A stretch of 64,000 nucleotides of DNA, from the NCBI GenBank assembly GCA_025594325.1, contig JANHCV010000006.1:558001-622000 (forward strand), read 5' to 3'. Each line of letters begins with the position of its first letter. The stretch's first letter is position 1. Under the pieces are notes generated by a model that had not been told where the DNA came from, made no database searches, and saw only the letters and a list, made by a program, of their open reading frames with translations. The stretch comes from Blastocladiella emersonii ATCC 22665 (taxonomy: Eukaryota > Fungi > Blastocladiomycota). Below are positions 25,901 through 47,137 of the stretch, piece by piece. Made by a program: the position numbers and the translations under genes.

Positions 25901-26224
25901 TCCTGACCATCTAGCTCCTCCGCTCCCGACGACTCGATCTCGGCACTTTGCCTAAACGAGTCTCCGCCATCAATTATGCAAAATACCCAGTCCACGAGGT
26001 GAATTGTTCGAGCAGCGACATGTCGGCTTGTCTCGCGACGCTGAGACGCTTCCATTCGTTTCACGAGGCGCGCACGTACTGTGGCGCGACGTGTTGCCGT
26101 CGAACAAACGAACGCATCACGCGCGATCACGGAAACGACTTGCCCAGCTAGTCGGTGTCAGTCCAGTGCGCGTTATGCACCAAGTTCACAGCGGACAACA
26201 TTTTTTGTTGCTGAGAGCAGTACG

Positions 26225-26250
26225 TGAGGTATCCTTATAAGGATACCTCA
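26225..26250. repeat. Perfect 26-bp terminal palindrome TGAGGTATCCTTA|TAAGGATACCTCA (also 49545-49570)
   Basis: Directly readable; self-complementary at all 26 positions. Confidence 0.98.
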
Positions 26251-26575
26251 GGATAGGATTAAATGGCTATAGAGGTAGATGTGGTTAGGTCTATCCCTGG
26301 GGACGCCCGTCAGAAACATCCCCAGGGATGCGCGCGCGCCCGCAGCCACGAAGTGGCGGAGGGTCCTCACGTGATAAGTCGACGCGTCTCCAAGTGTCTC
26401 GCGGCCCACGTGACGGTCATCTGATCCGCGACGCGTCTCGAAATGACTTTGCGATTATTCGATGAATTGAAATCCACGACGGGCATGGGCGATATTGGCA
26501 AACGTCTATGAATCCGTCGGCGCGGTGAGGAAATGGTGAGTCGGTTGGTGAGAGTATAGGTGAGGTCGGTGAGAG

Positions 26576-26722
26576 TGTGTCCCTGTGTCCCAGTGTCCCA
26601 GCGATTTTCACTTGTAGCTCGTATTTTGAACTGAAAACAGCATACTAACTAAGTATGTTAGTTATATTTTTCAAATTTATAAAAAAGAATATTTAGCTGG
26701 GACACTGGGACACTGGGACACA
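26576..26722. repeat. Origin-like block: 3x TGTCCC repeats, AT-rich core, 3x inverted GGGACA repeats
   Basis: Directly readable. Also in the right TIR (~49073-49219) and as a diverged internal copy at ~48765-48911. Origin function is inferred. Confidence 0.8.
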
Positions 26723-26844
26723 AGTAGGTTGATAGAGTAGACGGCCATTTGGTAGTGGGTTTCAGTCGTCATAGTCCATGCCATCTGAGAAGCGGGCGCG
26801 GCGGATTTCCAGTCACTGGGCGATCCAGCTGTGGGGCAGGGAGT

Positions 26845-27152
26845 TGTGAGTATGACGCAGTTTTTAGGGCCTCCACAAAGGAAGCTAATGGCTTACCCCG
26901 GGTGTGAGTTTGTGAGTACAGGAATCGGAACTTTTCCACCCCGCCCATAATTCGGAGACTTTTTGTCACTGACATATGTATGTTACTTTTTTCTTCCAAA
27001 TATATATCACTGAATACCTCTAAATCTCATACTCACATACTCACAAGACAAAAAACAAAGTAAAAACACTCAGGGTAACGTAAAAGTAGTGCATTTTGTG
27101 AGTACGGCCTCCACACTCACACACACTCACACACACTCACAATCTACTCACA
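26845..27152. repeat. Array of ten TGTGAGT/ACTCACA heptamers in both orientations
   Basis: TGTGAGT at 26845, 26903, 26911, 27097; ACTCACA at 27031, 27039, 27115, 27125, 27135, 27146. Confidence 0.8.
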
Positions 27153-29519
27153 ATCATTGCCGTCGTCCTCTGCAGTATTGAGTCTGTAGCTGTAGACCAC
27201 ACCAGTCACCACTGGCCGCTTGGTCCGGGCCGTCCGATCGTACTGGGTGCAACAGTCCTTGGCATGCTTGCCCATGCAGTGCTTGCAGAGGTTCATTGTG
27301 GCCTTGCCCAGTCCGCGCGCCTCCATCAGGGAGTCATTCCACTTGGTTTTGGGGTGCAGATCAAGTGCGCGGAGGAAATCAGTGTAAAGCATCGCCTGCT
27401 CCGGATCCGCTGTCACAGTCAGCGGGCAGTCATCATCAAGCAGTGCGCTCCCAATTGGATCGTTTGCCAGTTTAGCCATGACAGCGTTATCCTTGAATAC
27501 CTGCTCCATAATGTCATCGCGGAATGTGAGCCCCTGGTTCTCCTCAAGGTGCTGCACAGTGAAGTGATACGCGTCCAGGGCAAACAGCAGAATGTTCAGC
27601 AAGTACTTGTCTCGGATCTGCGCCTGGAGGAACGTGTTCTCGCGTTCGGGCTTCTTTGTAAAGTTGATAAACATGAAACGCTTGGAAACTTCGTTGAAAA
27701 CTTCGGTAATCTTGAGAACAAAGTTGGACGTTGGCAGCATATGCGCCTCAAAGGCATCAGTGACCTCGTCCCCGCCCTTTCGCGCGCTGGAAAGTCCCTT
27801 ACCCTCGACCAGGTTCTTGGCCGTCTGGAAACCAAGTTTCTCGAAAAAGTCAGCATTTACATCTGTGAGCTCCCACGCGACCTTGTTCTTCGTATACGCG
27901 ATCGTAAACTTGGTCACAGTTTCATCACTGGCCGTGGCCTGGAAGCGGTGCATCCCATGGATGTCCTGAACAAGCTTGATGGACAGAGACTTGCCCGTGC
28001 CCGACTCGCCATAGGTAAATGGCGTGATTGCCCAGTTGTCAAAGTATCCCACTGGGAACATGGTGCGGCCAAAGTACATCATCACGTACTGAATCTTGGC
28101 AAGCTCGTTGCTACCAAACTGTAGATCAAGCACGTCCTGGTAAGGGCCCAGGCTGAGCTCAGAGTACTTGTTCAGGTAATCGAAATCGAACTCGTTGTCA
28201 ATGTACGTCCACACCACTGGGTTCCCACTGCAAACGTGGTTTACAAACCACTCGTAGTTGTCCTCGATGTCCTGTAGAGAAATTGGCCCCCATTTACGGT
28301 TCTCATGCGTGCCAGTGAACAGAACCCCATTCTTGAACGCGATCAGGCTGCGGTTTTGTTTGTACTGGGGGATGTTCTTAGAACCCTGCGCCAATCGCTG
28401 TGTTACGTGGCGGCGGTACTTGCTTGCGTCCTGGTTGTAATAGTCGACAAATACGTCATCGAGAATGTAGGACACGTACTCATCCACTGTCATGTGGCGC
28501 TCAAAATAAAACGGGTTCTTTGCTGATGGCTTGTAAATGTACTCGCTGTCCTTGACATAGCCCAGGGTCTTGAACTCGTCCACGATAAACTCTGAGATCA
28601 ACTGCGTTGGTGTCTTCTCCTCCTCCTCTTCCTCGGGCTCTGGAATGGCACAGGGCGCGACAATGGGTTTCTCGGCCCACTTGATATCAAAACCCGTCTT
28701 TTCGAGCGTGTACGCACCGAGGTCGGCCATAAACTGCTCGTTGATCTGATCTGAGGCACGGACCATCATGCCGTCGTACATGAGAACCGCGACCTTGATA
28801 TCACGCGAAGAGCAAAAGTCTTTGGCGTGAAGAAGGAGCTTGCACTCGACACACTGATAGACGAACGAGAGGAATGAGCCCTGGCGATTGGGATGCTTTG
28901 GCGACGACATGGCCCACACATCCAGGTGCATCTCTTGAAACTTGGGAACCACGACGTTGTACAAAAACGCGTGGAACGCCTTGTACTCGGCGGGAAACTC
29001 CAACGGACACTTTTTGCTGAACGAGCCAGCGAAGAAATCGGTTTTGTTCATGCCCAGTCGATCAAGTACGCTGTTTCGGTTCTCAATGTACTCGTTGAGA
29101 AGAGGGTACTCGAGTCCATGGTGACGAGCCAGTTGGTGGATGATGGTTGGCGCACAGTTGTGCATGTCGATATCTTGGAGCACGCCCTCGAACAGGAACG
29201 CACGCGTTTCGCCGCAAATCTTTTGTAGCCCAGGAGTAGTAGGCGTGGTAGTAAGTCGGCCAGAGTTTGTCGTGTCTGAGAACTTGTAGATGGTCTCGAC
29301 TTCACCGCGCTTATTCATCTTGCGACGGATTGAGTTGACGATTTTCGTTTCCTTGGCCTGTTGCTTTGGGTCGGCACACGAACACTGGATCGCCTTGCTG
29401 TGTAGAGCTTCCACGGCCTTGGGGTTCACTGGCGCCATGAGGCGGACGGCATAGAGCGGGTCAAGAATCTTTGAAAGGTCCTTGACAGTCTCGGTAATCT
29501 TTGAGGCGGCGGAAGACAT
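27144..29519 (-). CDS. TVpol-like (family A polymerase-related) primase fused to an SF3/D5-like helicase
   Basis: N-terminal SGRL...GLQ...DIDMHNCAPTI and LMYDG motifs; C-terminal Walker A GESGTGKS, ARKGG and PTSNF. ATG at 29519 (MSSAASK) preferred to the ORF-track start. Confidence 0.8.
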   Translation of the reverse strand: MSSAASKITETVKDLSKILDPLYAVRLMAPVNPKAVEALHSKAIQCSCADPKQQAKETKIVNSIRRKMNKRGEVETIYKFSDTTNSGRLTTTPTTPGLQKICGETRAFLFEGVLQDIDMHNCAPTIIHQLARHHGLEYPLLNEYIENRNSVLDRLGMNKTDFFAGSFSKKCPLEFPAEYKAFHAFLYNVVVPKFQEMHLDVWAMSSPKHPNRQGSFLSFVYQCVECKLLLHAKDFCSSRDIKVAVLMYDGMMVRASDQINEQFMADLGAYTLEKTGFDIKWAEKPIVAPCAIPEPEEEEEEKTPTQLISEFIVDEFKTLGYVKDSEYIYKPSAKNPFYFERHMTVDEYVSYILDDVFVDYYNQDASKYRRHVTQRLAQGSKNIPQYKQNRSLIAFKNGVLFTGTHENRKWGPISLQDIEDNYEWFVNHVCSGNPVVWTYIDNEFDFDYLNKYSELSLGPYQDVLDLQFGSNELAKIQYVMMYFGRTMFPVGYFDNWAITPFTYGESGTGKSLSIKLVQDIHGMHRFQATASDETVTKFTIAYTKNKVAWELTDVNADFFEKLGFQTAKNLVEGKGLSSARKGGDEVTDAFEAHMLPTSNFVLKITEVFNEVSKRFMFINFTKKPERENTFLQAQIRDKYLLNILLFALDAYHFTVQHLEENQGLTFRDDIMEQVFKDNAVMAKLANDPIGSALLDDDCPLTVTADPEQAMLYTDFLRALDLHPKTKWNDSLMEARGLGKATMNLCKHCMGKHAKDCCTQYDRTARTKRPVVTGVVYSYRLNTAEDDGNDCE

Positions 29520-29638: not shown

Positions 29639-30094
29639 CTATTCCGCGTCGTCTTCCGCCGTCTCTGGCTTCTGTTTCTTTTCGAGTTTGCGCACAGATG
29701 CCTTTGCAATTGCCTTGAGCATCACATCGAGCTTTACTTTTTCCCATTCCGCGCGAATAATTTCCGCCTCGCACTCTGGAATGGAAAACTTGGCAAGAGT
29801 TCCTGCAATGTCCACGTCCAGCTTTCGAACCTTTAACTTGCCCACGAGCTCGAGGAGTGTGTTTTCGCCCCAGGAAGTGAGCGGGCACTTGGAAAGCTTG
29901 CGATTCAAAGCGAGTTCGACGATCGCCACGCGGGCAGCGAGTGCGCGGACCTTCTCAAACGCGGCACCCGCCATCCCTGGGGATATCGTTGTGATGGCTT
30001 CGCTGTCAAGCTGCAGAACGAGTTCTGGATCGAATACAGTGTTGGGGATGTCAGTGACATGGCTCAGGAAGAATCCCATCAAGTGCGAGTCCAT
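29639..30094 (-). CDS. Hypothetical viral protein (~151 aa)
   Basis: Open frame packed between the helicase and recombinase genes; no recognised motif. Confidence 0.55.
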   Translation of the reverse strand: MDSHLMGFFLSHVTDIPNTVFDPELVLQLDSEAITTISPGMAGAAFEKVRALAARVAIVELALNRKLSKCPLTSWGENTLLELVGKLKVRKLDVDIAGTLAKFSIPECEAEIIRAEWEKVKLDVMLKAIAKASVRKLEKKQKPETAEDDAE

Positions 30095-30189: not shown

Positions 30190-31527
30190 ATGGCGTCGTT
30201 CGAGCTTCTGGTCAAGGACATCCTTGCGCAAGCCACCAAGGAGTTTATGAACGCCCTCGAGCCCCGCCTCCAAGCCATCGAGGACAAGCAAGCGACGATT
30301 CTCAGCCACATGGCCGAGACCCAGTCCAAGATTGAGCCTCGCCTGGCTGAGGTGGAGCGCGAGTTTGCTCACTTGGCCCACACCCTTGAAGGCGACAATC
30401 ACCTGTACCACGAGTGTATCCATGGTGTTAAAACCCGTCTCGACAACCTCGAGAAGGCCGTGCCCGTGCAGGCTACGAAGCGCTCGCATGACGTCATGGA
30501 ACGTGATTCGGATCAGCCCGCTGATCACCCAGCCACGCAGGACGTGGAGATGGCCGACGCGTCCGAGTCCTCGACCACCAACGAGGATCAGCAGCCCGCC
30601 GCTAAGAAGCTCAAGTTCGAGACGATCACAGCCAAGTCGATTGAGGAGTTCAAGAACGCGGACATCATCAAGGCCAACAAGGAAGTCGGGAAGCGCAGTG
30701 ATACTGATAAAGCGACGGCGAACCGCATTCTCACCAAGTTCATGGCTTCGGGCGTCTCGATGCACAACGTGGATGCTGTGAAGGCCGCCATGGTCAAGTG
30801 GGACGACAAAAAGGGAAAGAACAACCCGCCAGATGCGCTCCAGTCGGACACGGCCAAGTGGCTCAGCGTGTACTGCAACTGGAACGGCGACAATGAGCTT
30901 GCTGATCAGTACTCGAAGCCCGCCCAGGAACTTCGTAAGCAGAAGCGCGAGGCCCGCAACAAGGAGGAAGCCGGCACGCTGCCCACTCAGGCTGAGGTTC
31001 TGAAGGCGATCGACGAGAAGTTTGACTGGACGCTGGACAAGGAAGTCAGCCTCGCCAGCAAGGTCCACCAGCTGCAGCTTTACCTCCAGACTCTGACTAC
31101 GGTTCGCAGTGACCTCGCATTCCTCACTGTGGATAAGACGGACCACTTCCCGCACTACGACCCTGAGACGAAGCTCATTTACGGTCCCATTGTGATCAAG
31201 ACGGCCGGCCGCGGATACGACTTCAAGCACCGCGTTGCCGACGACCAGGCTAACATGCTCGCCAAGTTTATCAAGTACCGCCGCGACCAGGGCTTTGATT
31301 TCGTGTTTGCCGACAGCATTGATGACGCCGAGGCGCTGTGCAAGAAGTGGTGCCAAGACGTTGGCCGCAGTGGCAAGCTCGTTGGACTTGACGTTGGAGT
31401 CCAGAAGCTGCGCCGGATCAGCGCGTCTGAGAACACGAAGGCGTACAACGAGATCAAGGCTCGCGCCCATGCCATGGGTCATTCCGTGGGCGTTCACGTC
31501 GACACGTACATGGTCGGCAAGAACTGA
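30190..31527 (+). CDS. Tyrosine recombinase family protein (resembles the PLV/virophage OLV11-type) with N-terminal coiled coil
   Basis: Candidate catalytic residues in order: TVR(S)DL, IKTA, KLRRISAS, MGHS...TY. R-to-H spacing 23 and H-to-Y spacing 9, as in YR enzymes. Confidence 0.7.
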   Translation: MASFELLVKDILAQATKEFMNALEPRLQAIEDKQATILSHMAETQSKIEPRLAEVEREFAHLAHTLEGDNHLYHECIHGVKTRLDNLEKAVPVQATKRSHDVMERDSDQPADHPATQDVEMADASESSTTNEDQQPAAKKLKFETITAKSIEEFKNADIIKANKEVGKRSDTDKATANRILTKFMASGVSMHNVDAVKAAMVKWDDKKGKNNPPDALQSDTAKWLSVYCNWNGDNELADQYSKPAQELRKQKREARNKEEAGTLPTQAEVLKAIDEKFDWTLDKEVSLASKVHQLQLYLQTLTTVRSDLAFLTVDKTDHFPHYDPETKLIYGPIVIKTAGRGYDFKHRVADDQANMLAKFIKYRRDQGFDFVFADSIDDAEALCKKWCQDVGRSGKLVGLDVGVQKLRRISASENTKAYNEIKARAHAMGHSVGVHVDTYMVGKN

Positions 31528-31551
31528 TGGATATTTCTCCTTGTTAATATA

Positions 31552-32661
31552 ATGTATCCGCACGAAGAACCACTTACGGATGCTCAATCAGAGTATTTGA
31601 GCAACCTGTACTATAAAAAGGGCCACGTTGGCGTCGGCATCAGGCGATTATTTGATATCATCACCGCGGAAAATACAGGGCAGCACATCTACCGAGCCCA
31701 ACTCGAAAAATGGCTTGGAGAGCAATCAGTGTGGCAGCAATATAAACAGCCCAAGTACAAGCACCGCGACATTCGTGTGATCTCGTCCGTTAGTCCCGGC
31801 CGCAACTTCCAGATGGACTCGATTATCATGGGCGAAGCAAAGCACTTTAACGGTTACACTGCAATTCTCGTCGCTGTCGACCTTGCCACGCGTAAAGTCT
31901 ATCTCCGACCCGTAAAGAAACGCGAGGCGGCCAACGTGCGGGCAATCTGGGACAAGGTCGTAGAGGAACACAATTTGAATCCCGCTACGATCCAGACGGA
32001 TAACGGGACAGAGTTTGCAACCATTGTGGCCGGGACCACTGTGAAGCACATTAAAGGCAAACCCGGAGTGCCCCAAGGCCAGGGAGTTGCAGAACGAATG
32101 AATCGTACAATCAAGTCAATGCTCATCCCGTGGATGTCGATTCAAGGCAACAACGACTGGCCGAAACACCTCAAGGTAATCGAGGACGTAATCAACAAGT
32201 CCAAGAGTCGTGGGACGGGTAAAGCGCCGAACGCCTACGACAACATCCCCAGGGATGTCGCCAAGACAGAGCTCAAAGCCATCCGTGCCGCTCGGGGCAA
32301 ACCAGAGGGTGATCCACTGAGCGCGTTGCTGAAAGTCGGCCAGCTCGTTCGCGTGCGCATTCCGTACAAGACCCAGTTAGGGTCCAAGGGAAAGCCGCTA
32401 TGGTCGAGTACATTGCATCAAGTCACCAAAGTCCGCAAGGGTTCGGGGGTGAGTAATCCGAGCTATAAAGTCGCCGGTCGCGTCGGGTTTTACTCTCGAA
32501 CTGATCTCCAGCCCGTTTCAGTATCACGTGAGCCGCCGGGACGCGTTGCGCCACAGCGACCAGCACCACAGACGCGCACTAAGCAGCCAATCGAGCCACG
32601 CAAGCCGCCGGAACGTGATCGACGCGAACCCGGTCGATTCAGGGATACGGTGCGCCACTGA
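31552..32661 (+). CDS. Retroviral-type (rve, DDE) integrase
   Basis: FQMDSI (D), IQTDNGTEF (D), GVAERMNRTIK (E); C-terminal KVGQLVRV...YKV SH3/KOW-like segment. Confidence 0.93.
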   Translation: MYPHEEPLTDAQSEYLSNLYYKKGHVGVGIRRLFDIITAENTGQHIYRAQLEKWLGEQSVWQQYKQPKYKHRDIRVISSVSPGRNFQMDSIIMGEAKHFNGYTAILVAVDLATRKVYLRPVKKREAANVRAIWDKVVEEHNLNPATIQTDNGTEFATIVAGTTVKHIKGKPGVPQGQGVAERMNRTIKSMLIPWMSIQGNNDWPKHLKVIEDVINKSKSRGTGKAPNAYDNIPRDVAKTELKAIRAARGKPEGDPLSALLKVGQLVRVRIPYKTQLGSKGKPLWSSTLHQVTKVRKGSGVSNPSYKVAGRVGFYSRTDLQPVSVSREPPGRVAPQRPAPQTRTKQPIEPRKPPERDRREPGRFRDTVRH

Positions 32662-32662
32662 A

Positions 32663-35476
32663 TCAGCGCATAAAGAAGAGGTCAAGAGTGACGTGAACGG
32701 ATTGGGTCATGGAAACGGTGGAAGACCACGTAAACCCGTACTGCTTTCCGGCTTCAAGGTACACTGTAGCACTGCCTCCCATGTACTGATCTGACGCGAA
32801 CTTACAGAGAGCTCGTGCCAGCAGTCCAATGTAGTCCTTACCCGCTACCGTCGAGTCGGTGGCATTATACAGCGAGTAAGTCGCGATGTGCTCCGTGACC
32901 GTACTTCCCTGCGTGTACCAGCCCTGACTGCGTAGTGCGTACCATCCCGTTGCGCTGACAGTGAAACAGCCGTTGGTTGCTCCAAGACCCAGGAACCCGG
33001 GACTTGTCGAGTTAACGATCGCCGCGCCTTGACTGTTTGCGCCCGTGATGACCTGGGATTGTCCGGATAAAAACGACAAACTCGCCGAGTTGATGAAAAC
33101 CTGTCCCCACCGATTTGTAGCCATGAGATTATCGACGTACGCTTTATTCGCGGCATCTGTGCCCGCCACTGGAGCAAGGTCGAGTGTGAGTTGGCCAGTG
33201 AACCGACCAGTGCCGTTGACTCGAAGTTTTTCTGTTCCAAGGGTCGCTGATCCGATGACCACGTTCCCACCGCCAGCTGCCAGGGATACGCCGCCCGTCG
33301 TTGCGGATGCGAGTTCGAGATTCCCTGCGGCAGTACATGCGAGATTGTTCTTGATGACGCCAGCTTGTTTAAAGTCGACGTACGTCAGCGTGTTTACCGC
33401 ACTGTCAAAGACCATATTCGCGCTCGTAAAGTTTCGGACCAGAATGTTGGGCACGGACAGTTGTTTATTCACTCCAAGTCCGCCGTTAATCGTGATCGCA
33501 CCAGATGAAGTCGATGTGCTATCCGTCGTATTCGTAAACGCAAACGTCGCGCCAAGTCCAAGTGCGGATTGAGGCACTGTGCCTGTTAGTGCGGATGCGC
33601 TCACGGATGTCACTTTTGAGGAAATATCGGGAAGACGGGCAATGTCGATGGTTCCTGCGAGTTTCGTAGCGTCAATTCCTGTGGCCAGTTTGAGATTCCC
33701 GATAGAACCGTCCGCGATACGTGCCACGTCCAGAGTTCCAGTGAGCTTTGTAGCGGAAACGTCCGCGACTTTGATGTCCGAGACAGCACCGCTTGCAAGC
33801 TGGCTATTTCCAATGGATCCGGCCGAGACTTTGGCGCCATCAATACCCATTGCAAGTTTGAGATTGCCAATCGAACCGTCCGCAATTCGTGCAACATCGA
33901 GTGTGCCAGTGAGCTTGGAAGCCGAAACGTCCGCGACCTTGATGTCCGAGACAGCACCGCTTGCGAGTTGGGCATTTCCAATAGATCCGGCCGTGACTTT
34001 GGCGCCATCAATTCCCGTTGCGAGTTTGAGATTGCCAATCGAACCGTCAGCAATGCGTGCAACATCGAGTGTACCTGTCAGCTTTGCGGCAGAAACGTCC
34101 GCGACCTTGATGTCCGAGACAGCACCGCTTGCGAGTTGGGCATTGCCAATAGATCCGGCCGTGACTTTGGCGCCATCAATTCCCGTTGCGAGTTTGAGAT
34201 TGCCAATCGAACCGTCAGCAATGCGTGCAACATCGAGTGTACCTGTCAGCTTTGCGGCAGAAACGTCCGCGACCTTGATGTCCGAGACAGCACCGCTTGC
34301 GAGTTGGACATTGCCAATAGATCCGGCCGTGACTTTGGCGCCGTCGATTCCCGTTGCAAGTTTGGCGTTCGAAACAGCCAAGTCAGCGAGTGCTGATGTA
34401 CCTACTGAACCCGCAACGAGCTTTCCACCAGAAACACTCACAAGTTTGGCATCCGAAACAGATGCATCAACAAGTGCAAGGCCGGACAGAGAACCAACTT
34501 TGTTTGAAACATCAGGGAGTCGAGCCAAGTCAATGGTTCCAGTCGTAATCTTTGCAGCATCTACGGCACCGATTTGGGCATTTGTGATCTGCCCGTTCAA
34601 CTTGGTCGTTTCAAGGGAGGCAATCATCCCTGAGAATACCGTGGGGATGTTCGCAGCAGCAAGTACGCCCGAAACCTTGGATGCGGACACTCCGGCGATT
34701 TGGGAGTCGGTGATGAGTCCAGTGATGGTCGATGCAGCTGTCGATGTCGTTGCGGGAAGACACGACACCGGAACCAATCCAGTGAGTTTGCCAGCGTCAA
34801 TAGTCAAAGGGAGATTAGCCGCGGCAAGTGTACCGCCGATTCGGCCCGCGTCGATCGTGTTTGGGAGCTGACTCTGTGCAAATTGGCCCACGACCTTGGT
34901 CGCTGAAACGCTGGCAATGTTTGCGTCGGCAACGGGTTCAGCCAGCATGGCGTTTGTGATCCGCGGAGCCGTAACTTTTGTCCATGGCACACTTGTGAGT
35001 TTCTCAGGCGTGACAGATGCATCGACCAGCTTTGCCGTGGTCACTGAACCATCTTGAATCGCCGCAGACGTCACTGATCCAGCTGCAAGACCGGACTTGA
35101 CATAGATTCCCTGTGCCCCAACTCCAAGCGTCGCGTCGTCCACCTTTACCGATACGACGTTTCCAATGACATTCACACCAGGACCTGCGCCAATCACGTT
35201 TGAAAGTTTTGATTCAAGGTGGGCCTTGGTCACGGCATGCGTTGGAAGTGTGGGTGGCTCAGATAGCGTGACTTGGGAGAATCCAGGTAGGTCACTCACT
35301 GCAACGGTCTTGCCAGTAACAACGATGTTGGTCCCCGCAGCCACTCCAGAGTTGGCGTTACAGTACGCCTTTGTTGCAAGGTTTGAGACGCTGTCAATGG
35401 CCACCGGATCGGCGACCACAGTTGGAGTACCGGTACCAGGTGCGTACCCAAAGATGTTTCGCGTGTTCAAGTCCAT
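32663..35476 (-). CDS. Fibre/adhesin-like virion protein with tandem 56-aa repeats (937 aa)
   Basis: Gly/Ala/Ser/Thr-rich; DGSVTTAKL-type and DAANKAYVD motifs reminiscent of viral fibres; internal repeat array. Confidence 0.6.
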   Translation of the reverse strand: MDLNTRNIFGYAPGTGTPTVVADPVAIDSVSNLATKAYCNANSGVAAGTNIVVTGKTVAVSDLPGFSQVTLSEPPTLPTHAVTKAHLESKLSNVIGAGPGVNVIGNVVSVKVDDATLGVGAQGIYVKSGLAAGSVTSAAIQDGSVTTAKLVDASVTPEKLTSVPWTKVTAPRITNAMLAEPVADANIASVSATKVVGQFAQSQLPNTIDAGRIGGTLAAANLPLTIDAGKLTGLVPVSCLPATTSTAASTITGLITDSQIAGVSASKVSGVLAAANIPTVFSGMIASLETTKLNGQITNAQIGAVDAAKITTGTIDLARLPDVSNKVGSLSGLALVDASVSDAKLVSVSGGKLVAGSVGTSALADLAVSNAKLATGIDGAKVTAGSIGNVQLASGAVSDIKVADVSAAKLTGTLDVARIADGSIGNLKLATGIDGAKVTAGSIGNAQLASGAVSDIKVADVSAAKLTGTLDVARIADGSIGNLKLATGIDGAKVTAGSIGNAQLASGAVSDIKVADVSASKLTGTLDVARIADGSIGNLKLAMGIDGAKVSAGSIGNSQLASGAVSDIKVADVSATKLTGTLDVARIADGSIGNLKLATGIDATKLAGTIDIARLPDISSKVTSVSASALTGTVPQSALGLGATFAFTNTTDSTSTSSGAITINGGLGVNKQLSVPNILVRNFTSANMVFDSAVNTLTYVDFKQAGVIKNNLACTAAGNLELASATTGGVSLAAGGGNVVIGSATLGTEKLRVNGTGRFTGQLTLDLAPVAGTDAANKAYVDNLMATNRWGQVFINSASLSFLSGQSQVITGANSQGAAIVNSTSPGFLGLGATNGCFTVSATGWYALRSQGWYTQGSTVTEHIATYSLYNATDSTVAGKDYIGLLARALCKFASDQYMGGSATVYLEAGKQYGFTWSSTVSMTQSVHVTLDLFFMR
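33690..34360 (-). repeat. About four tandem 168-bp (56-codon) repeats inside the fibre gene
   Basis: Anchor GATCCGGCC recurs at 33816, 33984, 34152 and 34320 (period 168). Confidence 0.92.
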
Positions 35477-37663: not shown

Positions 37664-38425
37664 ATGTTCGAAATCAAACCGTTACGAGAAAAGGGCGACG
37701 CCAAGGGCCCGGACTCGCTCATCCCCAAAGTGTGCTTTTCGTGTGCGATCGTAGCATGTCGTGGAAGTGGCAAGACGCTCACGCTACTGAACATGATCAC
37801 ACGCTTTTACAAGGGCCAGTTTAGCCGGCTTGTCGTGTGCTGTCCATCGTTTGAAAGCGACGAGAAGTGGAAACACATCTTCGCGCCAGGAATCCTCTCA
37901 AAGCCCCGCCGCAAAGACAAGGCCGAAGCGCAACTGTTCCCAGACGATGACCTTGAAGACCCCACCGTTCCATCCGAGGCGGATGTCCATACGGATGCCG
38001 CGACCTTTGAAAACGTGGTCTACGAACTCATCGAGTCGCAAAAAGCCATCCCCAAACGCGATCGACAGCCCGTACTCCTTGTACTCGACGATTGCGCGGC
38101 AACGGGTGTGCTTAAAAGCAAAGTCCTCATTGATTGTGTCATGAACGGGCGACACTACATGATTTCCACGGTCTACGTCACACAATCTTACTTCCAGCTT
38201 GCCAAGCCGCTTCGTCTCAACACAACCAACTTTCTGTTGTTCTCAACGGGTAATCAAAAGGAAGTGAAAAACTTTTACGAGGAGCATCATTGTGGCAAGA
38301 CTTGGGACCGGTGGTTGCAGATCTATAATCACTGTACTGCCGAGGACTATTCGTTCATGCACGTCAATTACAAGAATAGCAAGGCGAGACTGCTCACCGA
38401 ACGGTTCGAAAAGTACGTGAATTAA
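37664..38425 (+). CDS. A32-like (FtsK/HerA superfamily) DNA packaging ATPase
   Basis: Walker A ACRGSGKT, Walker B LLVLDDC, NGRHYMIS, TQSYFQLAKPLRLN. Confidence 0.93.
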   Translation: MFEIKPLREKGDAKGPDSLIPKVCFSCAIVACRGSGKTLTLLNMITRFYKGQFSRLVVCCPSFESDEKWKHIFAPGILSKPRRKDKAEAQLFPDDDLEDPTVPSEADVHTDAATFENVVYELIESQKAIPKRDRQPVLLVLDDCAATGVLKSKVLIDCVMNGRHYMISTVYVTQSYFQLAKPLRLNTTNFLLFSTGNQKEVKNFYEEHHCGKTWDRWLQIYNHCTAEDYSFMHVNYKNSKARLLTERFEKYVN

Positions 38426-38443: not shown

Positions 38444-39637
38444 ATGAATCGGCAACGCCCAAGCACGCGTCCAACGTCCCGCGCACCAACTGGGTCGCGG
38501 CCCGAGACTGACACTGACCGGATCCGAAACAAGGAACACGATATCCCCATTGCGCAAAGGCCCATGAAACGCGTCCTTAAGATCAAGAAGATTGTGAGTA
38601 TCTCCAGGGATGGCACGAAAAAAGTCTTTCGACCAGTGAACCCAGTGTCGGCTGAGGCAAAGGCTAAGCGACGCATGCTCAAGGAACTTCCGAACGTACC
38701 CACAGTGACTCGCCGTGATCTGGAAGCGACTGCGCCCATGCCGTTTTCCATTGACGCCGTTCCCGTCGATACAGTATCAAGTGCGGTCTACGTGGCTCCC
38801 ATTGATGCTCGGAGCAGGGCACTCGAAGTACAGCACCAAACATCGCATCCCACTGAGGAGCACGTCTTCACTTTCACCAACGCGGATGTCCAGGCAGACG
38901 GCCGTATTCCGCTCCCACCTGGTTCAAGGTTCTCGCACGTCCGACTCTTGGATTTTACAATAGAGAACAACATCTATAGCGTCGATGCGACAAACGACTT
39001 TCTGGATATGACTGTGTTCCCGCTTGGAACATCGCTGGATCAAGTCAAGAGTGGGCAAGTCACTGGGTTACGGTCAAAGTATACGATTCCCCGCGGATTT
39101 TATACGCAGGCAACACTTGCATCCACTCTGGCCAGCGTGACTGGGTACTTTAATCCCAACAGCGACGGCGATCTGAAACTTGAGGTCAGTTTCAATGCCA
39201 TTCGCTTCGTTGCTGAACTCCGACTTGTCAAGGGCGCAAATGCAGAGTGTTTCATCGTCCATCCATGTAAACTCGCAAGCGACTTTTTAGGTCTCTCACA
39301 CGAACAGTTTAACGTGCCAGCTCGACTGATTGTGGGTGACCGTTGCGTGGACATGACCGGCGGACTGTTCTCACTTGTGATCCACAGCTCGGAACTTGGG
39401 AGTGCGACCACCAATAAACGTCTTCATGGCGCCAATCACAAACCCGTTCTCGCTGCCTTTCCCATCAACAGTTCACCAGGATATGCCACAACCTATCGCA
39501 GTCCATCGACCAGTATGAGCTGGTTCGGGTACCAGCGCGACCTGGACACGTTCTCGATCGAGTTTTCCGAAGGGTCCACAGGCCGTCGGCTCGATACCAC
39601 AAGTTGCCAGTGGTTTATGACGCTGTGTTTCTCGTAA
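38444..39637 (+). CDS. Minor capsid (penton-like) protein with basic N-terminal extension
   Basis: VRLLDFTIENNIYSV...YTIPRGFYT...FSIEF...GRRLD...WFMTL pattern; sits between the ATPase and MCP genes. Confidence 0.75.
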   Translation: MNRQRPSTRPTSRAPTGSRPETDTDRIRNKEHDIPIAQRPMKRVLKIKKIVSISRDGTKKVFRPVNPVSAEAKAKRRMLKELPNVPTVTRRDLEATAPMPFSIDAVPVDTVSSAVYVAPIDARSRALEVQHQTSHPTEEHVFTFTNADVQADGRIPLPPGSRFSHVRLLDFTIENNIYSVDATNDFLDMTVFPLGTSLDQVKSGQVTGLRSKYTIPRGFYTQATLASTLASVTGYFNPNSDGDLKLEVSFNAIRFVAELRLVKGANAECFIVHPCKLASDFLGLSHEQFNVPARLIVGDRCVDMTGGLFSLVIHSSELGSATTNKRLHGANHKPVLAAFPINSSPGYATTYRSPSTSMSWFGYQRDLDTFSIEFSEGSTGRRLDTTSCQWFMTLCFS

Positions 39638-39668: not shown

Positions 39669-40883
39669 ATGTCCAGTTCGCTAAAACTCTACGACTCCCA
39701 GCCCGAAATCGCGCCCGAGGAAATCCTTTACCGCGTTCCTGAGCACGTTTCAGGGACTCGTGTGTACAACACGGTTCGTTCAACCACTGGCGGAGTGTTC
39801 TCGGATGCCAATCGCCAGATCCGGTTCCGCATCCCTGGCGTAAAGACTAAGATGATTGATCCGACGACACTGTTCTTTGTATTCAATCACAATGCCACTT
39901 CGAGCAATAACCAGATCGTCATGGACGAGAACGCGTTCAGCTGCATCGAAAGCATCCGTGCAACCGACGAGAAAGGCACAGTCCTATTCAAAGAGAACGA
40001 GTACGCGCGCCTCCATGCTATCCTGCTCGATACGACTTGCAACGAGTCCCAGCGCAAGAATCTTTTCCACCTGGGCTGTGGGCCAAAGACATCGCGCCCG
40101 CTCGGCCGCAAGTACATGGTCCATCTCAAGGGACTGTTCGACGTGAAGACCTTTATTCCCACGTCCATGTTCGGGTTCATCGACATTGACATCAACCTTC
40201 GTCCTGGCGCACAGTGGCACGTCACCACCGAGAACGGCGCTCCCTCAGAGAACCTTGAGTATGCACTGACCAACTGTGAGCTCCAGTTTGAGGAGGTAGA
40301 GCTGTCGCCCCAGATCAACGCTGTACTTGCAAAGCGCTGGATGAACGAGGGAATCAAGTTTCACTTCTCGAGCTTTACTCACTTTGGTAAAACCCTGAAT
40401 GCAGGCGTAAACACCATCGTCATCCCTAACCGCAACCGCTCCCAAAAGACTGTGATCGCGTCTATGCAGCTGTCAAGTCTGGTCAATCTAAACCAAATCA
40501 CAGAAATGTCCAAGACGTACACCCGCGCGTGTCGTCTGCTTTCTTACCAGTTCAAGATTGGCAATACTTATTACCCATCAAAGCCTGTGGCTGATGTTTC
40601 AGAGGCGTGGTGTGAGGTCGTCAAGGCGTTTTCGCATAACGTCCGTGGGGTTGTGGAGTTCTCAAATTACTATGGTCCTCAAAGCACCAAGTTCTTCATT
40701 GCCCAAAACCTGAACGTCGTCCGATCGGCTATCAGTGGCAACAGCGACGGTGTGGTCTCACAGCTGCCCATTGATCTGATTCTGACTCTACCCGCCGACT
40801 CTCCGCCTATCCGCTTTGATGCTTGGGTTGAGCACGACGTCGTGGTGGTCGCAAAGGCTTTGGGCACAACCGTGATCCACTAA
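39669..40883 (+). CDS. Major capsid protein (double jelly-roll, PLV-type)
   Basis: 404 aa, beta-rich; FSDANRQIRFRIPG...MIDPTTLFFVFN and YQFKIGNTYYPSKPV resemble PLV MCP motifs; follows ATPase and minor capsid genes. Confidence 0.85.
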   Translation: MSSSLKLYDSQPEIAPEEILYRVPEHVSGTRVYNTVRSTTGGVFSDANRQIRFRIPGVKTKMIDPTTLFFVFNHNATSSNNQIVMDENAFSCIESIRATDEKGTVLFKENEYARLHAILLDTTCNESQRKNLFHLGCGPKTSRPLGRKYMVHLKGLFDVKTFIPTSMFGFIDIDINLRPGAQWHVTTENGAPSENLEYALTNCELQFEEVELSPQINAVLAKRWMNEGIKFHFSSFTHFGKTLNAGVNTIVIPNRNRSQKTVIASMQLSSLVNLNQITEMSKTYTRACRLLSYQFKIGNTYYPSKPVADVSEAWCEVVKAFSHNVRGVVEFSNYYGPQSTKFFIAQNLNVVRSAISGNSDGVVSQLPIDLILTLPADSPPIRFDAWVEHDVVVVAKALGTTVIH

Positions 40884-41850: not shown

Positions 41851-42024
41851 TGTCACGGTTCAGTGATCCGACGGCTCGGGCTGGTGGCGCGGGCTGGTGG
41901 CGCAGTCCCTCATAAGCCGAGCGTTGCCCTCGCTCTCCCTCTCTCTTGTCATTCGTGATACAATCATTCATTATCCGGCTAGTCATTCCTCGTGGCACAA
42001 GACCCTCCCCCTCGGCACCTTACA
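41851..42024 (+). repeat. 5' LTR
   Basis: TGTCACGG...CCTTACA; one mismatch seen against the 3' LTR (CAATCATTC vs CAATCCTTC). Confidence 0.97.
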
Positions 42025-42078
42025 CTTTGTATCACCGTAAAACCCCCTCCGAGCGGTGATTTCTTCCACGACGGCAAA

Positions 42079-43155
42079 ATGATAACGCCGGCACAGTTCC
42101 TCGAAAAGCTGGCGACGTTTGACGTTGCGGCCATTGTCCCCGAGTACCAGCTCGCGCCGTGGCGCGACCTGGTCATGCCGTACGAGGACAAAGCCAAGCT
42201 CGTCTTCCTCGCGCTCAACGTCGCCAGCGACTACTGGCAACTGGGCGTGTCGACCGAGGCCCGCGCGGTCGCGGCCGAGCGGCGCGCCGAGACGGCGGAG
42301 CGCCGCGCGTATGCGCTCGAGGTCGAGCTGCGGCAGACGCAGCAGAGCCAGCCGCTCAACGGTATCCTGCAGGGCGAGCTCGACAGCATCCAGGTCAGCA
42401 GCGCGCGCGGGCCGGGCGTGGGCGTTGATGGCTTCACGCCGGCCGCGATGCACGCGCTGATGCGCATGAATTCGGTTGACGGCGTCAACTTCAAGGTCAA
42501 GAGCGCCATCACGCAGTACGAGAGCATCCTCCAGCTCACGTTCAACGTCCCGGAGAAGTTCAAGATTGCGCACTTCCACGGCAAGCTGACGGGCAAGGTG
42601 CTCGAGGCCGTGGAGCTGGCGATGGCCGGGTCCAAGTTTGAGGACTACGGCTCGTTCAACGCCTACATCTCCCTCGTCAAGTCAACGCAGCCGGCCGAGA
42701 AGTCGGAGACCGAGTACGCGCACGAGCTCAAGAACCTCAAGTACGTGCGCGGCGCCATGCCGGCGCGCGATTTCGTCTCCAAGTTCCGCCAGACCGCGTC
42801 CGGTGCAGGCTACCGCGCGCTCAGCGAGCTGGCGATGCAGTTCTACCTGGTGGTCACGGCCGGCAACTCGCCGCTGGCCGCGGACGTGGCCTTCGCCTCG
42901 CTGCGCAAGGGCTACCGTTTCGACAAGATGGTCGAGCACTTCCTGGTGCACGAGGGCGGGGCGACGGGCGTCGCGGCCGAGCTCGTCCCGGACCCGGACG
43001 CCATGGACGTTGGCGCGATTCGGCAGCGGGCGGCGGCGCACCAGGGCCGCGCCCTCACCGACATCAAGTGCTACAACTGCAAGGGCTACGGCCACAAGGC
43101 GGCTGATTGCCCGTCGCCCCCGCGCTCGTCGTCGGGAAACGCCAGTCGGGCGTAG
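42079..43155 (+). CDS. gag: Gag with CCHC zinc knuckle
   Basis: CYNCKGYGHKAADC knuckle at the C-terminus; start codon uncertain (first ATG after the LTR used). Confidence 0.85.
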   Translation: MITPAQFLEKLATFDVAAIVPEYQLAPWRDLVMPYEDKAKLVFLALNVASDYWQLGVSTEARAVAAERRAETAERRAYALEVELRQTQQSQPLNGILQGELDSIQVSSARGPGVGVDGFTPAAMHALMRMNSVDGVNFKVKSAITQYESILQLTFNVPEKFKIAHFHGKLTGKVLEAVELAMAGSKFEDYGSFNAYISLVKSTQPAEKSETEYAHELKNLKYVRGAMPARDFVSKFRQTASGAGYRALSELAMQFYLVVTAGNSPLAADVAFASLRKGYRFDKMVEHFLVHEGGATGVAAELVPDPDAMDVGAIRQRAAAHQGRALTDIKCYNCKGYGHKAADCPSPPRSSSGNASRA

Positions 43156-46100
43156 CGGAGCAGGCCGCGACGTCCTCGAAGCCAAAACCTGCGGATTTGG
43201 GTGGTACAACGGCGATGGCCACGGCGGCCGCCGCCGCGGATAAGATGTCGGTGCCCGCCGACAAGAAGAAAAAAATGAACAAAAAGAAGAAACAAAACAT
43301 GAATGATAAGAAGACTAATGGAAAATCTGTTGCTGCGTACTTTGGTGCACTTGTGCGTCTAGAGATGGCGCAGGACCACCTGCACCTCGGCGGGCTCCTC
43401 GCGCATCCAGGGCTCCGCACGGCGCCGATCCCGACGTTCATGATGCTCGACACGGGCGCGCCGGTTAACCTGATCAGCCGCAGGGTGGCCGAGCAGGCCG
43501 GGCTCGTGCCGAAGCGCCTAGCGCGTCGCATCGACCTCCGCGGTGTCGTCGGTTCCGCGCCGGGCCAGCGCTAGTACATCTCGCATTACGTGCACGCGGC
43601 CGTGTCCGTCACGTCGCCCGAGTTCCTGCACGCGGCGGTCGCGGGATCCCAAACCGTGTTCGCGGACGGCGTCGTGCCTCCCGGCGACGCGTCCAAGCAG
43701 AAGCGCGTGGTGGGAGACGCGGGTCGCGCCATCGACATTCCGTGCCTTCATTGCTCGGTCGCGCGCTTCCTCGTCGTCGACTCTCCCGCGTTTCCGGTGA
43801 TCATGGGACTCGAATGGATGGTCGCGAACGGCGCGAAGCCGGATCCGCGCTCGGCCACGGTCGCGATTGACGGCGCGTGCACTGGTCGCTGCGGGTGCCC
43901 GCCCGCCCAGCGCGTCACGGTGGCCACGGTCGCACCGCGCGTCGACCTCGACCCGCTCGCGTGGGACGAGGCACACGGCCCGCCCGAGGCGCCAGATGAC
44001 GCGGCGCCGAAGCGCGTGCTGCCCGCCAAGTACCTCAAGTGGGCGCACGTCTTCGATGCCGCCGCGGCGTCCGCGCTCCCGCCGCACCGACCGTACGACT
44101 GCGAGATCGAGCTCGTCGAGGGCGCCAAGGTGCCGTTCCTGCCCGTCTACGCCCTGTCGCAGCCCGAACTCGAGGAGCTGCGCAAGACCATCGACGAGAA
44201 CCTCGCGCGCGGCTTCATCCGCCCATCGCGGTCGCCAGCCGGCGCGCCGATCATGTTCGTGCCCAAGAAGGACGGGTCGCGCCGCATGTGTGTGGACTAC
44301 CGCCGCCTCAACGCGCTGACGGTCAAGAACCGCTACGCGCTGCCGCTCATCGCGGAGCTCATGAACCAAGTGCAGGGCGCGCGCATCTTCACCAAGTTCG
44401 ACCTGCGCGGCGCGTACAACCTGGTCCGCATCCGCGAGGGCGACGAGTGGAAGACGGCGTTCCGCACGCGCTACGGACATTATGAATGGATGGTGATGCC
44501 GTTCGGGCTGACCAACGCGCCGGCCGCGTTCCAGGCGTTTGTCAACGACGTGTTCCGCGACCTGCTCGACCGCCGCGGCGTTCTCGTGTACCTGGACGAC
44601 ATCCTCATCTTCAGCGAGGACCCCGAAGAGCACACGGCGCTCGTCAAGGAGGTGCTGCAGCGGCTCGCCGACAACAAGCTGTACGTCAAGCTCGAGAAGT
44701 GCGAATTCGACGTGACGCGCGTCGAGTACCTCGGCCACATCCTGACCACCGAGGGCGTCGAGATGGACCCGGCCAAGGTCCGCGCCGTGACCGAGTGGCC
44801 CGCGCCACGGACGGTCAAGGAGGTGCAGGCGTTCCTGGGCCTCGCCAACTACTACCGCCGCTTCATCCCCGAGTTCTCGGAACTGACCATCCCGCTCACC
44901 CGTCTTACGCAGAAGGACACGCCGTGGCGGTGGGGCGACACCGAGGCGGCGGCCTTTGCGGCCATCAAGACGCGGTTCGCGTCCGACCAGTTCCTCGCGC
45001 ACCCCGACCCCTCAAAACAGTTCATTGTCGAGGCCGACGCGTCCAACTTCGCCATTGGGTGCGTCCTGTCGCAGGTCGACAACGAGGGCACGCTGCGGCC
45101 GGTCGCGTTCCACTCGCGCGCGCTCAAGGCGGCGGAGCTGAATTATCCCATCTTGGATAAGGAGCTGCTCGCCATCAAGGTCGCGTTCGAGATCTGGCGC
45201 CACCACCTCGAGGGCGCGCAGCACCCGGTCGAGGTGTACACGGACCACAAGAACCTCGAGCACTTTCGCACCATGACGGTCGAGTCGCAGCGGCACGCGC
45301 GGTGGGCACTGTTCCTCGAGCGGGTTTCGTTCCGGTTCACGTACCGGCCCGGCGCAATCAACGGGCGCGCCGACGCGCTGTCGCGCCGCGCCGACTACGA
45401 GCTGTTTGACAACCCGATGCTCGGCCGCGCTGTCGTTCCCGCGTCGGCGCTCACGGTGGCCGCCACGGCCGCGGCCAGCGCGCCGCTCGTCGCGGGCACG
45501 CAGGGCGACGACGTGCTCGCCGCGATTCGGGACGGCCTGGCGGAGGACGAGCTCGCGCAGTCGATGCAGCGGAACCCGGGCAAGCACCCGTCGCTCACCA
45601 TGGACCTCGACGGCTTCGTTTGGCGAGACGACCGGCTGTACGTACCGTCGGGCGTCGCGCGCACCCGGGTGATCGAGGAGGCGCACGCGACGCGTGTAGC
45701 CGGTCATTTCGGCGTCCAGCGCACCATCGAGAATCGCGCTCGTACTGGTGGCCCGGGATGCGCAAGGTGATCGAGCGGTTCGTCAAGTCGTGCCTCACCT
45801 GCGCGCGGGCCAAGGTGCCGCGCCACCGGCCTGACGGCGAGCTGCAGCCGCTGCCCACGCCGCCGCGGCCATGGTCGTCGATCTCCATGGACTTCATCAC
45901 GGACCTGCCGCGCAGCAAGGGTCACACCTGCATCATGGTCGTCGTCGATCGGTTCTCCAAGATGACGCACTTCATCCCGCTCGCCGCGCTCCCGACGGCC
46001 GCCACGACCGCCGACGCCTTCATCGAGCACGTGGTGCGGCCGCACGGGCTGCCCGACGACATCGTCTCGGACCGCGGGTCGCAGTTCACGTCGCGGTTCT

Positions 46101-46963
46101 GGTCGGCCATGTGCGAGTCGCTTGAGATCAAGGCCAAGCTCTCGACGGCGTACCACCCGCAGACCGACGGGCAGACCGAGCGCATGAACCAGACCCTCGA
46201 GGTGTACCTGCGCATGTTCGCCAACGAGGACCAGTCGAACTGGGCCGAGCTGCTGCGGTACGCCGAGATGGCCATCAACAACACGGTCAACGAGTCAACG
46301 GGCATGTCGCCGTTCAAGGCCAACTACGCGTTTGACCCGCGGCTCTCGGCCGCGCCAGTTCGGTCGGATCGGGTCCCGTCAGCCGCCGCGCTGGCCGAGC
46401 GCATTGCCGACGTCCAGGGCAAGCTGCGCGAGAAGGTCGAGCGCGCCAAGGAGCTGTACAAGAAGCACGCTGACCGCCGCCGCCGCGAGGGCCCCGACTA
46501 CAAGGTCGGCGACATGGTGCTGCTGAGCACCAAGAACCTGCGCGTCAACGTGCCCAAGGCCAAGCTCGGGCCCAAGTACACGGAGCCGCTCAAGATCGTG
46601 CGCCTCATCCAGAAATCGGCCGTCGAGCTCGAGCTGCCGCCGACCATGGCGCGCGTCCATCCCGTGTTCCACGTCTCGCTCATCAAGCCGATCGACGAGC
46701 ACGACGAGGAGGCGTTCCCGGGCCGCGCGCTGCCGCCGCCAACGCCGTACGCCGTCAACGGGCACGAGGAGTGGACGGTCGAGGCGATCCGCGACGCGCG
46801 CAAGGTCGGCCGCAGCGTCGAGTACCTGCTCAAGTGGCACGGCTGCCCCAAGGACGACAACACCTGGGAGCCGTACGCGAACCTCAAGCACCTCGAGCTG
46901 CTCGCCGAGTTCCACGCGCAGAACCCGTCAAAACCCGACCCGCGGAGGGGGAAGGGGAGATAG
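43134..46963 (+). pseudogene. pol: Pol (protease, RT, RNase H, integrase, chromodomain) with two lesions
   Basis: LDTGA, YLDDILI, EADAS, SISMDFI/SDRGSQF/GQTERMN and EYLLKWHG...TWEP motifs; in-frame TAG at 43572-43574 and a frameshift near 45735-45745. Confidence 0.9.
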
Positions 46964-47137
46964 TGTCACGGTTCAGTGATCCGACGGCTCGGGCTGGTGG
47001 CGCGGGCTGGTGGCGCAGTCCCTCATAAGCCGAGCGTTGCCCTCGCTCTCCCTCTCTCTTGTCATTCGTGATACAATCCTTCATTATCCGGCTAGTCATT
47101 CCTCGTGGCACAAGACCCTCCCCCTCGGCACCTTACA
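46964..47137 (+). repeat. 3' LTR
   Basis: Direct repeat of 41851-42024, preceded by PPT GGAGGGGGAAGGGGAGATAG. Confidence 0.97.

What the first reader, a model, noticed from the sequence alone, without database searches (positions are those of the whole stretch)
30190..32661. Tyrosine recombinase and rve integrase side by side in one element
Seen: adjacent co-oriented genes 24 bp apart, one with R-K-R-H-Y motifs and one with a DDE triad. The TG..CA ends and 5-bp TSD fit integration by the rve enzyme, so the YR needs another job. Known: many PLVs carry one or the other. Inference: the YR acts in excision, end resolution or concatemer resolution. The His of the usual HxxR motif is replaced (QKLR), and that position also varies in telomere resolvases and topoisomerase IB, although the R-to-H spacing of 23 is that of ordinary YRs.
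Basis: partly seen in the sequence, partly recalled or inferred. Interest (0 to 1): 0.72.

Follow-up and report, generated by a model that had tools for sequence, protein, structure and literature searches.

The report
Two joining enzymes in fungal virus
A small DNA virus lodged in a water-fungus genome carries both a retrovirus-type integrase and a tyrosine recombinase, a rare but published pairing, and each of its ends is a perfect 26-letter palindrome that the recombinase likely uses to free or separate viral genomes.

Summary
30190-31527 is a tyrosine recombinase (YR): Xer/Cre-type two-domain fold, R306-K337-R408-H431-Y440 kept in a 25%-identical relative. It lies 24 bp before an rve integrase inside a Polinton-like virus (26225-49570; 588-bp perfect TIRs, TG..CA ends, 5-bp TSD, no protein-primed polymerase found) in a Blastocladiella-type genome. 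The missing HxxR His is also missing in 6 of 6 virophage/PLV YRs that I saw, so it is no hint of a telomere resolvase, and the model matches TelK/TelA weakly (Z 3.9/3.5 against XerA 9.4). YR plus rve is already published (EMALE types 5-7, Halocafeteria virophages, Tyrannomonas PLVs), though it is rare. Best reading (0.4): rve integrates, and the YR cuts and rejoins at this palindrome to release the provirus and resolve replicated ends. The published rival (0.25) is integration into giant-virus DNA. No related element with its ends could be fetched, so the YR-palindrome link is untested.

The parts
26220..26224 (+). Left copy of 5-bp target-site duplication GTACG
26225..26250 (.). Perfect 26-bp terminal palindrome (can be read as 10-6-10 around TTATAA); candidate YR site and hairpin-end footprint
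   Evidence: 15 of 22 contig pieces start exactly at 26225; function inferred
26225..26812 (+). Left TIR, 588 bp, 100% complementary to the right TIR
27144..29519 (-). Primase-helicase-like replication protein, 791 aa
   Evidence: PHROG DNA primase E 1e-12; Pfam DUF5906 E 2e-5, below cut-off
29639..30094 (-). 151-aa ORF of unknown function
   Evidence: no family
30190..31527 (+). Tyrosine recombinase, 445 aa: N-terminal helical extension, basic NLS-like motif at 136-142, core-binding domain, catalytic domain R306 K337 Q405 R408 H431 Y440
   Evidence: NLS label recalled
31552..32661 (+). rve (DDE) integrase, 369 aa, D89 D150 E181, not fused to reverse transcriptase
32663..35476 (-). Fibre-like protein with four 168-nt repeats
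37664..38425 (+). A32-like packaging ATPase
   Evidence: Pfam Pox_A32 37 bits against cut-off 22.8
38444..39637 (+). Probable minor capsid protein
   Evidence: position between ATPase and MCP only; no family hit
39669..40883 (+). [quoted passage not shown]
   Evidence: Atlas virus clusters at 0.97-0.98, one with Capsid_NCLDV on 15% of members, recognition value below the tool's threshold; 54% identical Allomyces protein
41851..47137 (+). Nested Ty3/Gypsy LTR retrotransposon with its own integrase; TSD CTCGC
47488..47973 (-). HNH endonuclease
   Evidence: Pfam HNH_3 44.6 bits
48983..49570 (-). Right TIR
49545..49570 (.). Right copy of the 26-bp terminal palindrome
49571..49575 (+). Right copy of TSD GTACG

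Best explanation
This endogenous Polinton-like virus carries an rve integrase that likely put it into the chromosome and a tyrosine recombinase that likely cuts and rejoins DNA at the 26-bp palindrome forming each viral end, which would free the provirus and separate replicated genomes. Shown: the two genes, the TIR/TSD/TG..CA ends, the palindromes, the lack of a detectable protein-primed polymerase; predicted: the YR fold. Inferred step 1: without protein priming the free genome needs closed ends; a hairpin end nicked by rve just after the CA that lies 13 nt past the tip, then joined to the target and filled in, gives exactly a 26-bp palindrome bounded by TG..CA. Inferred step 2: a YR dimer binds the two 10-bp arms and cuts around the symmetric 6-bp core. 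Inferred step 3: the cut ends are either exchanged between two sites, Xer/Cre fashion, giving a circle and leaving one palindrome between the TSDs (about half of the weight), or folded back into hairpins, telomere-resolvase fashion (the other half).
For: YR fold with core-binding and catalytic domains: XerA Z 9.4 (218 aligned, rmsd 14.4), XerD catalytic domain Z 7.6 (125 aligned, rmsd 3.3), Cre 7.8; viral YR models at E 2e-5 to 5e-4. R, K, R, H, Y intact in the window and 5 of 5 near-identical copies, in P0004 (37%) and P0006 (25%). Perfect palindrome at both ends, flush with the TSD, shared by at least two other junction flanks in contigs of one sample. In mid-GC EMALEs (PMC8547959) and Tyrannomonas PLVs (PMC12747079) YR plus rve goes with primase-helicase and no pPolB; in Halocafeteria terminal palindromes go with non-pPolB replication: both traits track the same replication mode, which suits a job in genome-end handling. 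YR-only PLVs mostly lack TSDs, so rve fits this insertion. Telomere resolvases cut palindromes 6 bp apart (PMC3558466).
Against: No binding or cleavage data; no related element with ends was recovered, so YR-palindrome co-occurrence is untested. Halocafeteria PLV subtype 4 has palindromes but its PLVs are reported without Yrec. Tyrannomonas YR+rve PLVs have direct, not inverted, repeats. The palindrome is fully explained by rve plus fold-back priming without any YR (model D of the preprint). TelK and TelA match weakly (Z 3.9, 3.5). In the second YR family 2 of 3 copies have Cys for the first Arg and the P0005 fragment lacks the second Arg. Model residues 285-305, which hold H431 and Y440, have pLDDT under 50. 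One oomycete PLV with YR and no listed rve has a 7-bp TSD, so a TSD does not prove rve.
Confidence: 0.4

Rival explanations
1. Two integrases for two hosts: rve inserts the virus into the fungal chromosome and the YR inserts it into the genome of a co-infecting giant virus; the palindromes serve replication only.
For: This is the published reading for virophages with both enzymes (PMC8547959; bioRxiv 10.64898/2026.07.28.741278) and for PgVV ORF3 (PMC4642659). Giant viruses infect Blastocladiomycota, at least Allomyces (bioRxiv 10.1101/2024.01.04.574182). The best viral fold matches are from giant viruses.
Against: The papers state it as a proposal in the passages read. The passages name Allomyces, not Blastocladiella. 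The YR has an NLS-like motif (label recalled), which suits nuclear DNA, though P0004 and P0006 lack it. It does not explain why YR plus rve goes with the absence of pPolB.
Confidence: 0.25
2. The palindromic ends are handled by fold-back priming and rve nicking alone; the YR resolves circular or concatemeric replication products at an internal site, or acts as a DNA-binding or packaging factor as some YR-fold viral proteins do.
For: Xer/Cre-like fold; fold lists include VLF-1 of nudiviruses/baculoviruses and the phage regulators MrpR, YopR and SroF; palindromes without reported Yrec in Halocafeteria PLV subtype 4. A subterminal cassette with 27-nt inverted arms offers another candidate site.
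Against: Catalytic residues are kept at 25% identity, which argues against a purely binding role. No other perfect palindrome of 14 bp or more lies in the element.
Confidence: 0.2
3. A transient state: the YR is a passenger or is being replaced by rve, and has no job in the present life cycle.
For: Non-homologous replacement of replication and integration genes is common in these viruses. The YR's third-position GC (0.78) is higher than that of the eight other viral genes measured (0.51-0.69). Catalytic losses in 3 of 4 members of the other families in this genome.
Against: The frame and all five residues are intact in every near-identical copy; the pairing recurs in unrelated viruses. The losses fit decay after insertion.
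Confidence: 0.1

Closest known systems
Mid-GC EMALEs, types 5-7, of Cafeteria burkhardae (PMC8547959; passages and part 1 of supplement 1 read)
   Same: rve plus YR in one element, TIRs, short TSDs, long primase/helicase, no pPolB, nested retrotransposons
   Different: Mavirus-type virophages with a protease; the text has no mention of palindromes (0 hits); YR proposed to integrate into giant viruses
Endogenous virophages and PLV subtype 4 of Halocafeteria seosinensis (bioRxiv 10.64898/2026.07.28.741278; passages and parts 2-3 of 5 read; figures and supplements not seen)
   Same: Palindromes inside the TIRs next to the TSD, tied to non-pPolB replication; some virophages have rve plus Yrec
   Different: 52-nt palindrome in the example; its PLVs are reported without Yrec; palindromes read as replication primers, with no link to the YR in the text read
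Tyrannomonas regina PLV-56 and PLV-78 (PMC12747079; passages read)
   Same: PLVs with YREC plus rve and a primase-helicase in place of pPolB
   Different: Flanked by terminal direct repeats, read as YR-type integration; here inverted repeats with a 5-bp TSD
OLV11-like tyrosine recombinases of PLVs and virophages (PMC4642659 passages; sequences seen in the supplement of PMC7805220)
   Same: Motif order R..KT..xxxLR[RH]..M[GA]H..Y, no His at HxxR, similar R-to-H spacing; Atlas neighbours are Preplasmiviricota proteins of 288-332 aa
   Different: Too divergent for any sequence hit; extra 140-aa N-terminal part; second motif reads QKLRR
Telomere resolvases TelK, TelA, ResT and the phaeovirus resolvase (PMC3558466, PMC5388405, PMC13236599; passages read)
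   Same: Phosphotyrosine chemistry family; a palindromic site with a self-complementary 6-bp centre is available
   Different: Weak structural match (Z 3.9, 3.5); TelA spacing R-to-H 28 and H-to-Y 11 against 23 and 9 here; works-like claim untested

Membership tests
Tyrosine recombinase superfamily | Core-binding plus catalytic domain fold | tested here: met
   Model pLDDT 72.9; all 5 chains at Z>=8 among 48,161 are YRs or type IB topoisomerases; isolated core-binding domains match model 1-105 (3nrw Z 6.8, rmsd 2.9)
Tyrosine recombinase superfamily | Catalytic R, K, R, H/W, Y conserved | tested here: met
   All five in 7 of 10 database proteins and in the window; first Arg is Cys in P0015 and P0016; P0005 is a fragment lacking both Arg
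Tyrosine recombinase superfamily | His of HxxR | tested here: not met
   Gln in 8 and Arg in 1 of 9 aligned; also absent in 6 of 6 annotated virophage/PLV YRs shown, so not required in this group
Tyrosine recombinase superfamily | Active-site geometry and DNA cleavage | not testable with these tools
   C-terminal segment with H and Y is modelled below pLDDT 50; no assay
OLV11-like PLV/virophage YRs | Profile-level membership | tested here: inconclusive
   No profile of the family on hand; motif match by eye, Atlas 0.98 to Preplasmiviricota clusters, one with Phage_integrase on 16% of members, best BFVD hit an Aureococcus virus protein that I could not equate with the one named in PMC4642659
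Telomere resolvases (TelK/TelA/ResT) | Fold closer to TelK/TelA than to Xer/Cre | tested here: inconclusive
   TelK Z 3.9 (130 aligned, rmsd 4.4), TelA Z 3.5 (116, 4.2) against XerA 9.4; leans against, but the tool warns that a weak match does not show different folds
Telomere resolvases (TelK/TelA/ResT) | TelA-like spacing of catalytic residues | tested here: not met
   23 and 9 here against 28 and 11 from R366, H394, Y405
Telomere resolvases (TelK/TelA/ResT) | Palindromic target converted to hairpins | not testable with these tools
   Palindrome present; no fold-back joint listed in contigs, which cannot show absence
rve integrase | rve domain with D, D, E | tested here: met
   Pfam above cut-off; D89, D150, E181
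Polinton-like virus | A32 ATPase and double jelly-roll MCP | tested here: met
   Pox_A32 above cut-off; MCP by Atlas neighbours only, a weaker test
Polinton-like virus | Minor capsid protein | not tested
   Assigned by position only
Polinton/Maverick | Protein-primed polymerase B and cysteine protease | tested here: not met
   Neither family among the 15 viral ORFs scanned with Pfam; small ORFs under 80 aa not scanned

The most novel reading that the evidence does not exclude
A Xer-fold viral recombinase has become a hairpin-making enzyme on its own: it cuts the 26-bp palindromes to lift the provirus out as a hairpin-ended linear genome and resolves replicated ends, while rve opens those hairpins to integrate. 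That would be a telomere-resolvase/retroviral-integrase life cycle shared by the non-pPolB PLVs and virophages, and would recast many of their 'integrase' YRs as end-resolving enzymes.
Probability: 0.2. Interest if true: 0.8.

Novelty: new member of a known kind. Interest (0 to 1): 0.45.

Why it matters
How PLVs without a protein-primed polymerase leave the chromosome and copy their ends is open, and so is the job of the second enzyme in elements with both rve and YR. This element puts enzyme and candidate site together in a cultured fungus with several near-identical copies: a 26-bp substrate and a 305-aa core make a direct test cheap. The YR is invisible to Pfam, PHROG and NCBIfam, so surveys that found almost no true YR+rve PLVs (12 of 8,300, all retrotransposon inserts) may undercount the pairing.

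Tried and rejected
No genome is held for the window, so other copies could not be read whole. Scans for related loci found none: viral contigs with YR, rve, ATPase, MCP alignment, YR alignment (one tblastn match, no locus returned), P0006 and the palindrome; metagenome contigs with the YR and MCP alignments; phage records. Single-sequence structure prediction failed (pLDDT 39.9) and was not used. Sequence searches of PDB gave only chance hits. Foldseek against PDB had no match at E<=0.001, best XerA 0.0095. No RNA holder was listed. No fold-back or end-to-end joint was listed in contigs of four DNA runs of one sample; contigs cannot show absence. Contig depth (TIR about 8-9 times, body 3-4 times the flank in two runs) is only a hint of copy number. 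The part read of the EMALE supplement (part 1 of 4) holds no end sequences. One search (YR alignment against the helicase) found nothing. Rejected: QKLR as a resolvase signature; the rve as part of the nested retrotransposon (it lies 9 kb away and that element has its own integrase); a Polinton assignment. Literature blanks: Blastocladiella + Polinton 0 papers; protelomerase + Polinton 0; telomere resolvase + virophage, two versions of one phaeovirus paper; one search gave only the Halocafeteria preprint on terminal palindromes. The 2024 MMBR review of this virus group is not held, and preprint figures and supplements were not seen; Fig. 4A of the Halocafeteria preprint would show whether Yrec and palindromes coincide there.

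Full report
Observation. The two genes are as described: a 445-aa ORF at 30190-31527 and a 369-aa ORF at 31552-32661, both on +, 24 bp apart. They lie in an element from 26225 to 49570 with 588-bp TIRs at 100% identity, TG..CA ends and GTACG on both flanks. The element also encodes a primase-helicase-like protein, a fibre-like protein, an A32 ATPase, a probable minor and major capsid protein and an HNH nuclease; no protein-primed polymerase or protease was found among the 15 viral ORFs scanned. A Ty3/Gypsy retrotransposon is nested at 41851-47137 with its own TSD and integrase. Near-identical proteins are annotated in Blastocladiella emersonii, and the capsid has a 54% relative in Allomyces. 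This is an endogenous Polinton-like virus.

The integrase. Pfam rve passes its cut-off and D89, D150, E181 are present. It is a stand-alone gene, not a retrotransposon fusion. In a survey of 8,300 PLVs and virophages, YR-encoding PLVs mostly lacked true TSDs (PMC12220804, passages), so the 5-bp TSD fits rve; one YR-bearing oomycete PLV with a 7-bp TSD (supplement of PMC7805220) shows that this is not proof.

The recombinase. No family library or PDB sequence recognises the window's protein. Homologues are few: five near-identical Blastocladiella gene models, one of which may be this locus, a second Blastocladiella family at 35-37%, a fragment, and one unnamed protein at about 25%. The alignment keeps R-[SG]-D-L-A, K-T, xxxR, M-G-H and Y. 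All five catalytic residues are present in the window and in 7 of 10 database proteins; 2 of 3 copies of the second family have Cys for the first Arg and the fragment lacks both Arg. Two of nine aligned proteins hit Phage_integrase weakly. A model from the nine-sequence alignment (pLDDT 72.9; the last 20 residues unreliable) matches XerA at Z 9.4, XerH 8.3, Cre 7.8, the XerD catalytic domain 7.6 and type IB topoisomerases 7-8 among 48,161 chains, and isolated integrase core-binding domains with its first 105 residues (one search agrees). Best viral models are from Aureococcus and Heterosigma viruses; Atlas neighbours are Preplasmiviricota proteins.

The QKLR motif. All six virophage and PLV YRs displayed from the supplement of PMC7805220 have Ser or Thr, not His, at that place, with KT and M[GA]H motifs like ours (read by eye; calling them OLV11-like is my inference). 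TelK and TelA are listed only at Z 3.9 and 3.5, and TelA's spacings (28, 11) differ from ours (23, 9). So the motif is a trait of this viral YR group and the protein should not be filed as a telomere resolvase. That lowers membership, not the possibility that it works like one.

The ends. The outermost 26 bp of both ends are the perfect palindrome TGAGGTATCCTTATAAGGATACCTCA, flush with the TSD. The longest palindrome in 100 shuffles of the element was 20 bp and the longest elsewhere in the window is 20 bp. The word AGGAT recurs 10 and 15 bp further in. In contigs of four DNA runs of one sample, which may be the window's own source, 15 of 22 pieces start exactly at 26225, 3 run on into the window's left flank and 4 start inside the TIR; besides the window's two flanks at least two others appear, and three runs hold a second end variant with 3 differences in 58 bases whose letters were not listed. 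The palindrome is thus the family's terminus.

How it likely works. Inferred: a genome without protein priming needs closed ends. If the free genome ends in hairpins, a nick by rve after the CA 13 nt past the tip, strand transfer and gap filling give precisely the integrated structure seen. Something must then turn the palindrome back into closed ends at excision and after replication. The YR is the only encoded enzyme with cut-and-rejoin chemistry, and the site reads as two 10-bp arms around a symmetric 6-bp core; telomere resolvases cut such sites 6 bp apart (PMC3558466; PMC5388405), and dif and lox sites have a similar arm-core-arm build (recalled). Because the site is symmetric, the two ends can also recombine as direct repeats and excise a circle. 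The fold favours the exchange route, economy of steps favours the hairpin route; I give them about 0.2 each. Indirect support: YR plus rve goes with primase-helicase and no pPolB in mid-GC EMALEs and Tyrannomonas PLVs, and terminal palindromes go with non-pPolB replication in Halocafeteria.

Against and rivals. Nothing here shows the YR touching the palindrome, and nine scans for related loci returned none. The Halocafeteria preprint explains palindromes by fold-back priming and reports them in a PLV subtype without Yrec, although a YR as divergent as ours would escape profile searches. The published reading of the pair is a second integrase for giant-virus DNA; giant viruses infect Allomyces in the same phylum. 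I give it 0.25. An internal resolution site or a binding or packaging role gets 0.2, a passenger 0.1.

Known and new. The pairing is in print for virophages (PMC8547959; bioRxiv 10.64898/2026.07.28.741278) and for PLVs (PMC12747079); general surveys describe PLVs as having either enzyme (PMC10120064, passages; bioRxiv 10.64898/2026.06.19.733378, passages). Terminal palindromes are in print too. I found no paper on Blastocladiella PLVs and none linking PLV or virophage YRs to telomere resolution, within a library that lacks most subscription papers and the 2024 MMBR review. Unchecked notes of this scan report the pair and 44-bp terminal palindromes in chytrid elements; they are leads, not support. 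Verdict: real, a new member of a known rare kind, of moderate interest because enzyme and candidate site can be tested directly.

Noticed in passing
window 41851-47137: Ty3/Gypsy chromodomain retrotransposon nested in the virus, LTRs 99% alike, TSD CTCGC; it lands in a Cys-rich, RING-like ORF on the minus strand (41375 to about 41850), whose label is by eye.
   Followed up: partly
window 26576-26745, 48742-48911, 49050-49219: A 170-nt subterminal cassette in three copies (91% for the extra one) with an AT-rich middle between 27-nt inverted arms of 8-nt iterons, plus a 42-nt partial copy at 26975-27016: candidate replication origin or second protein-binding site.
   Followed up: no
window 26225-26282 (contigs of runs X1-X3): A second end variant with 3 differences in 58 bases; letters not listed.
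   Followed up: no
P0004, P0015, P0016, P0005: A second and perhaps third YR family in the same species, 35-37% identical, suggesting further PLV families; 2 of 3 copies lack the first catalytic Arg.
   Followed up: partly
P0003, P0013, P0014: Related capsid proteins in Allomyces macrogynus and A. javanicus: the lineage spans Blastocladiales.
   Followed up: no
window 32663-35476: Fibre-like gene with four 168-nt tandem repeats.
   Followed up: no
window 31552-32661: The rve has 31 residues between the second Asp and the Glu, shorter than the 35 recalled for retroviral integrases, and no chromodomain hit.
   Followed up: no
window about 6000-17000: Host-side tandem array of about four diverged units of 2.6-3 kb with GC of 53-60% against 65-70% around it.
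   Followed up: no
run X4, loose ends at 25973 and 26265: Loose ends that I recognise from memory as loxP-type mate-pair adaptor: a library artefact, not a viral site.
   Followed up: no
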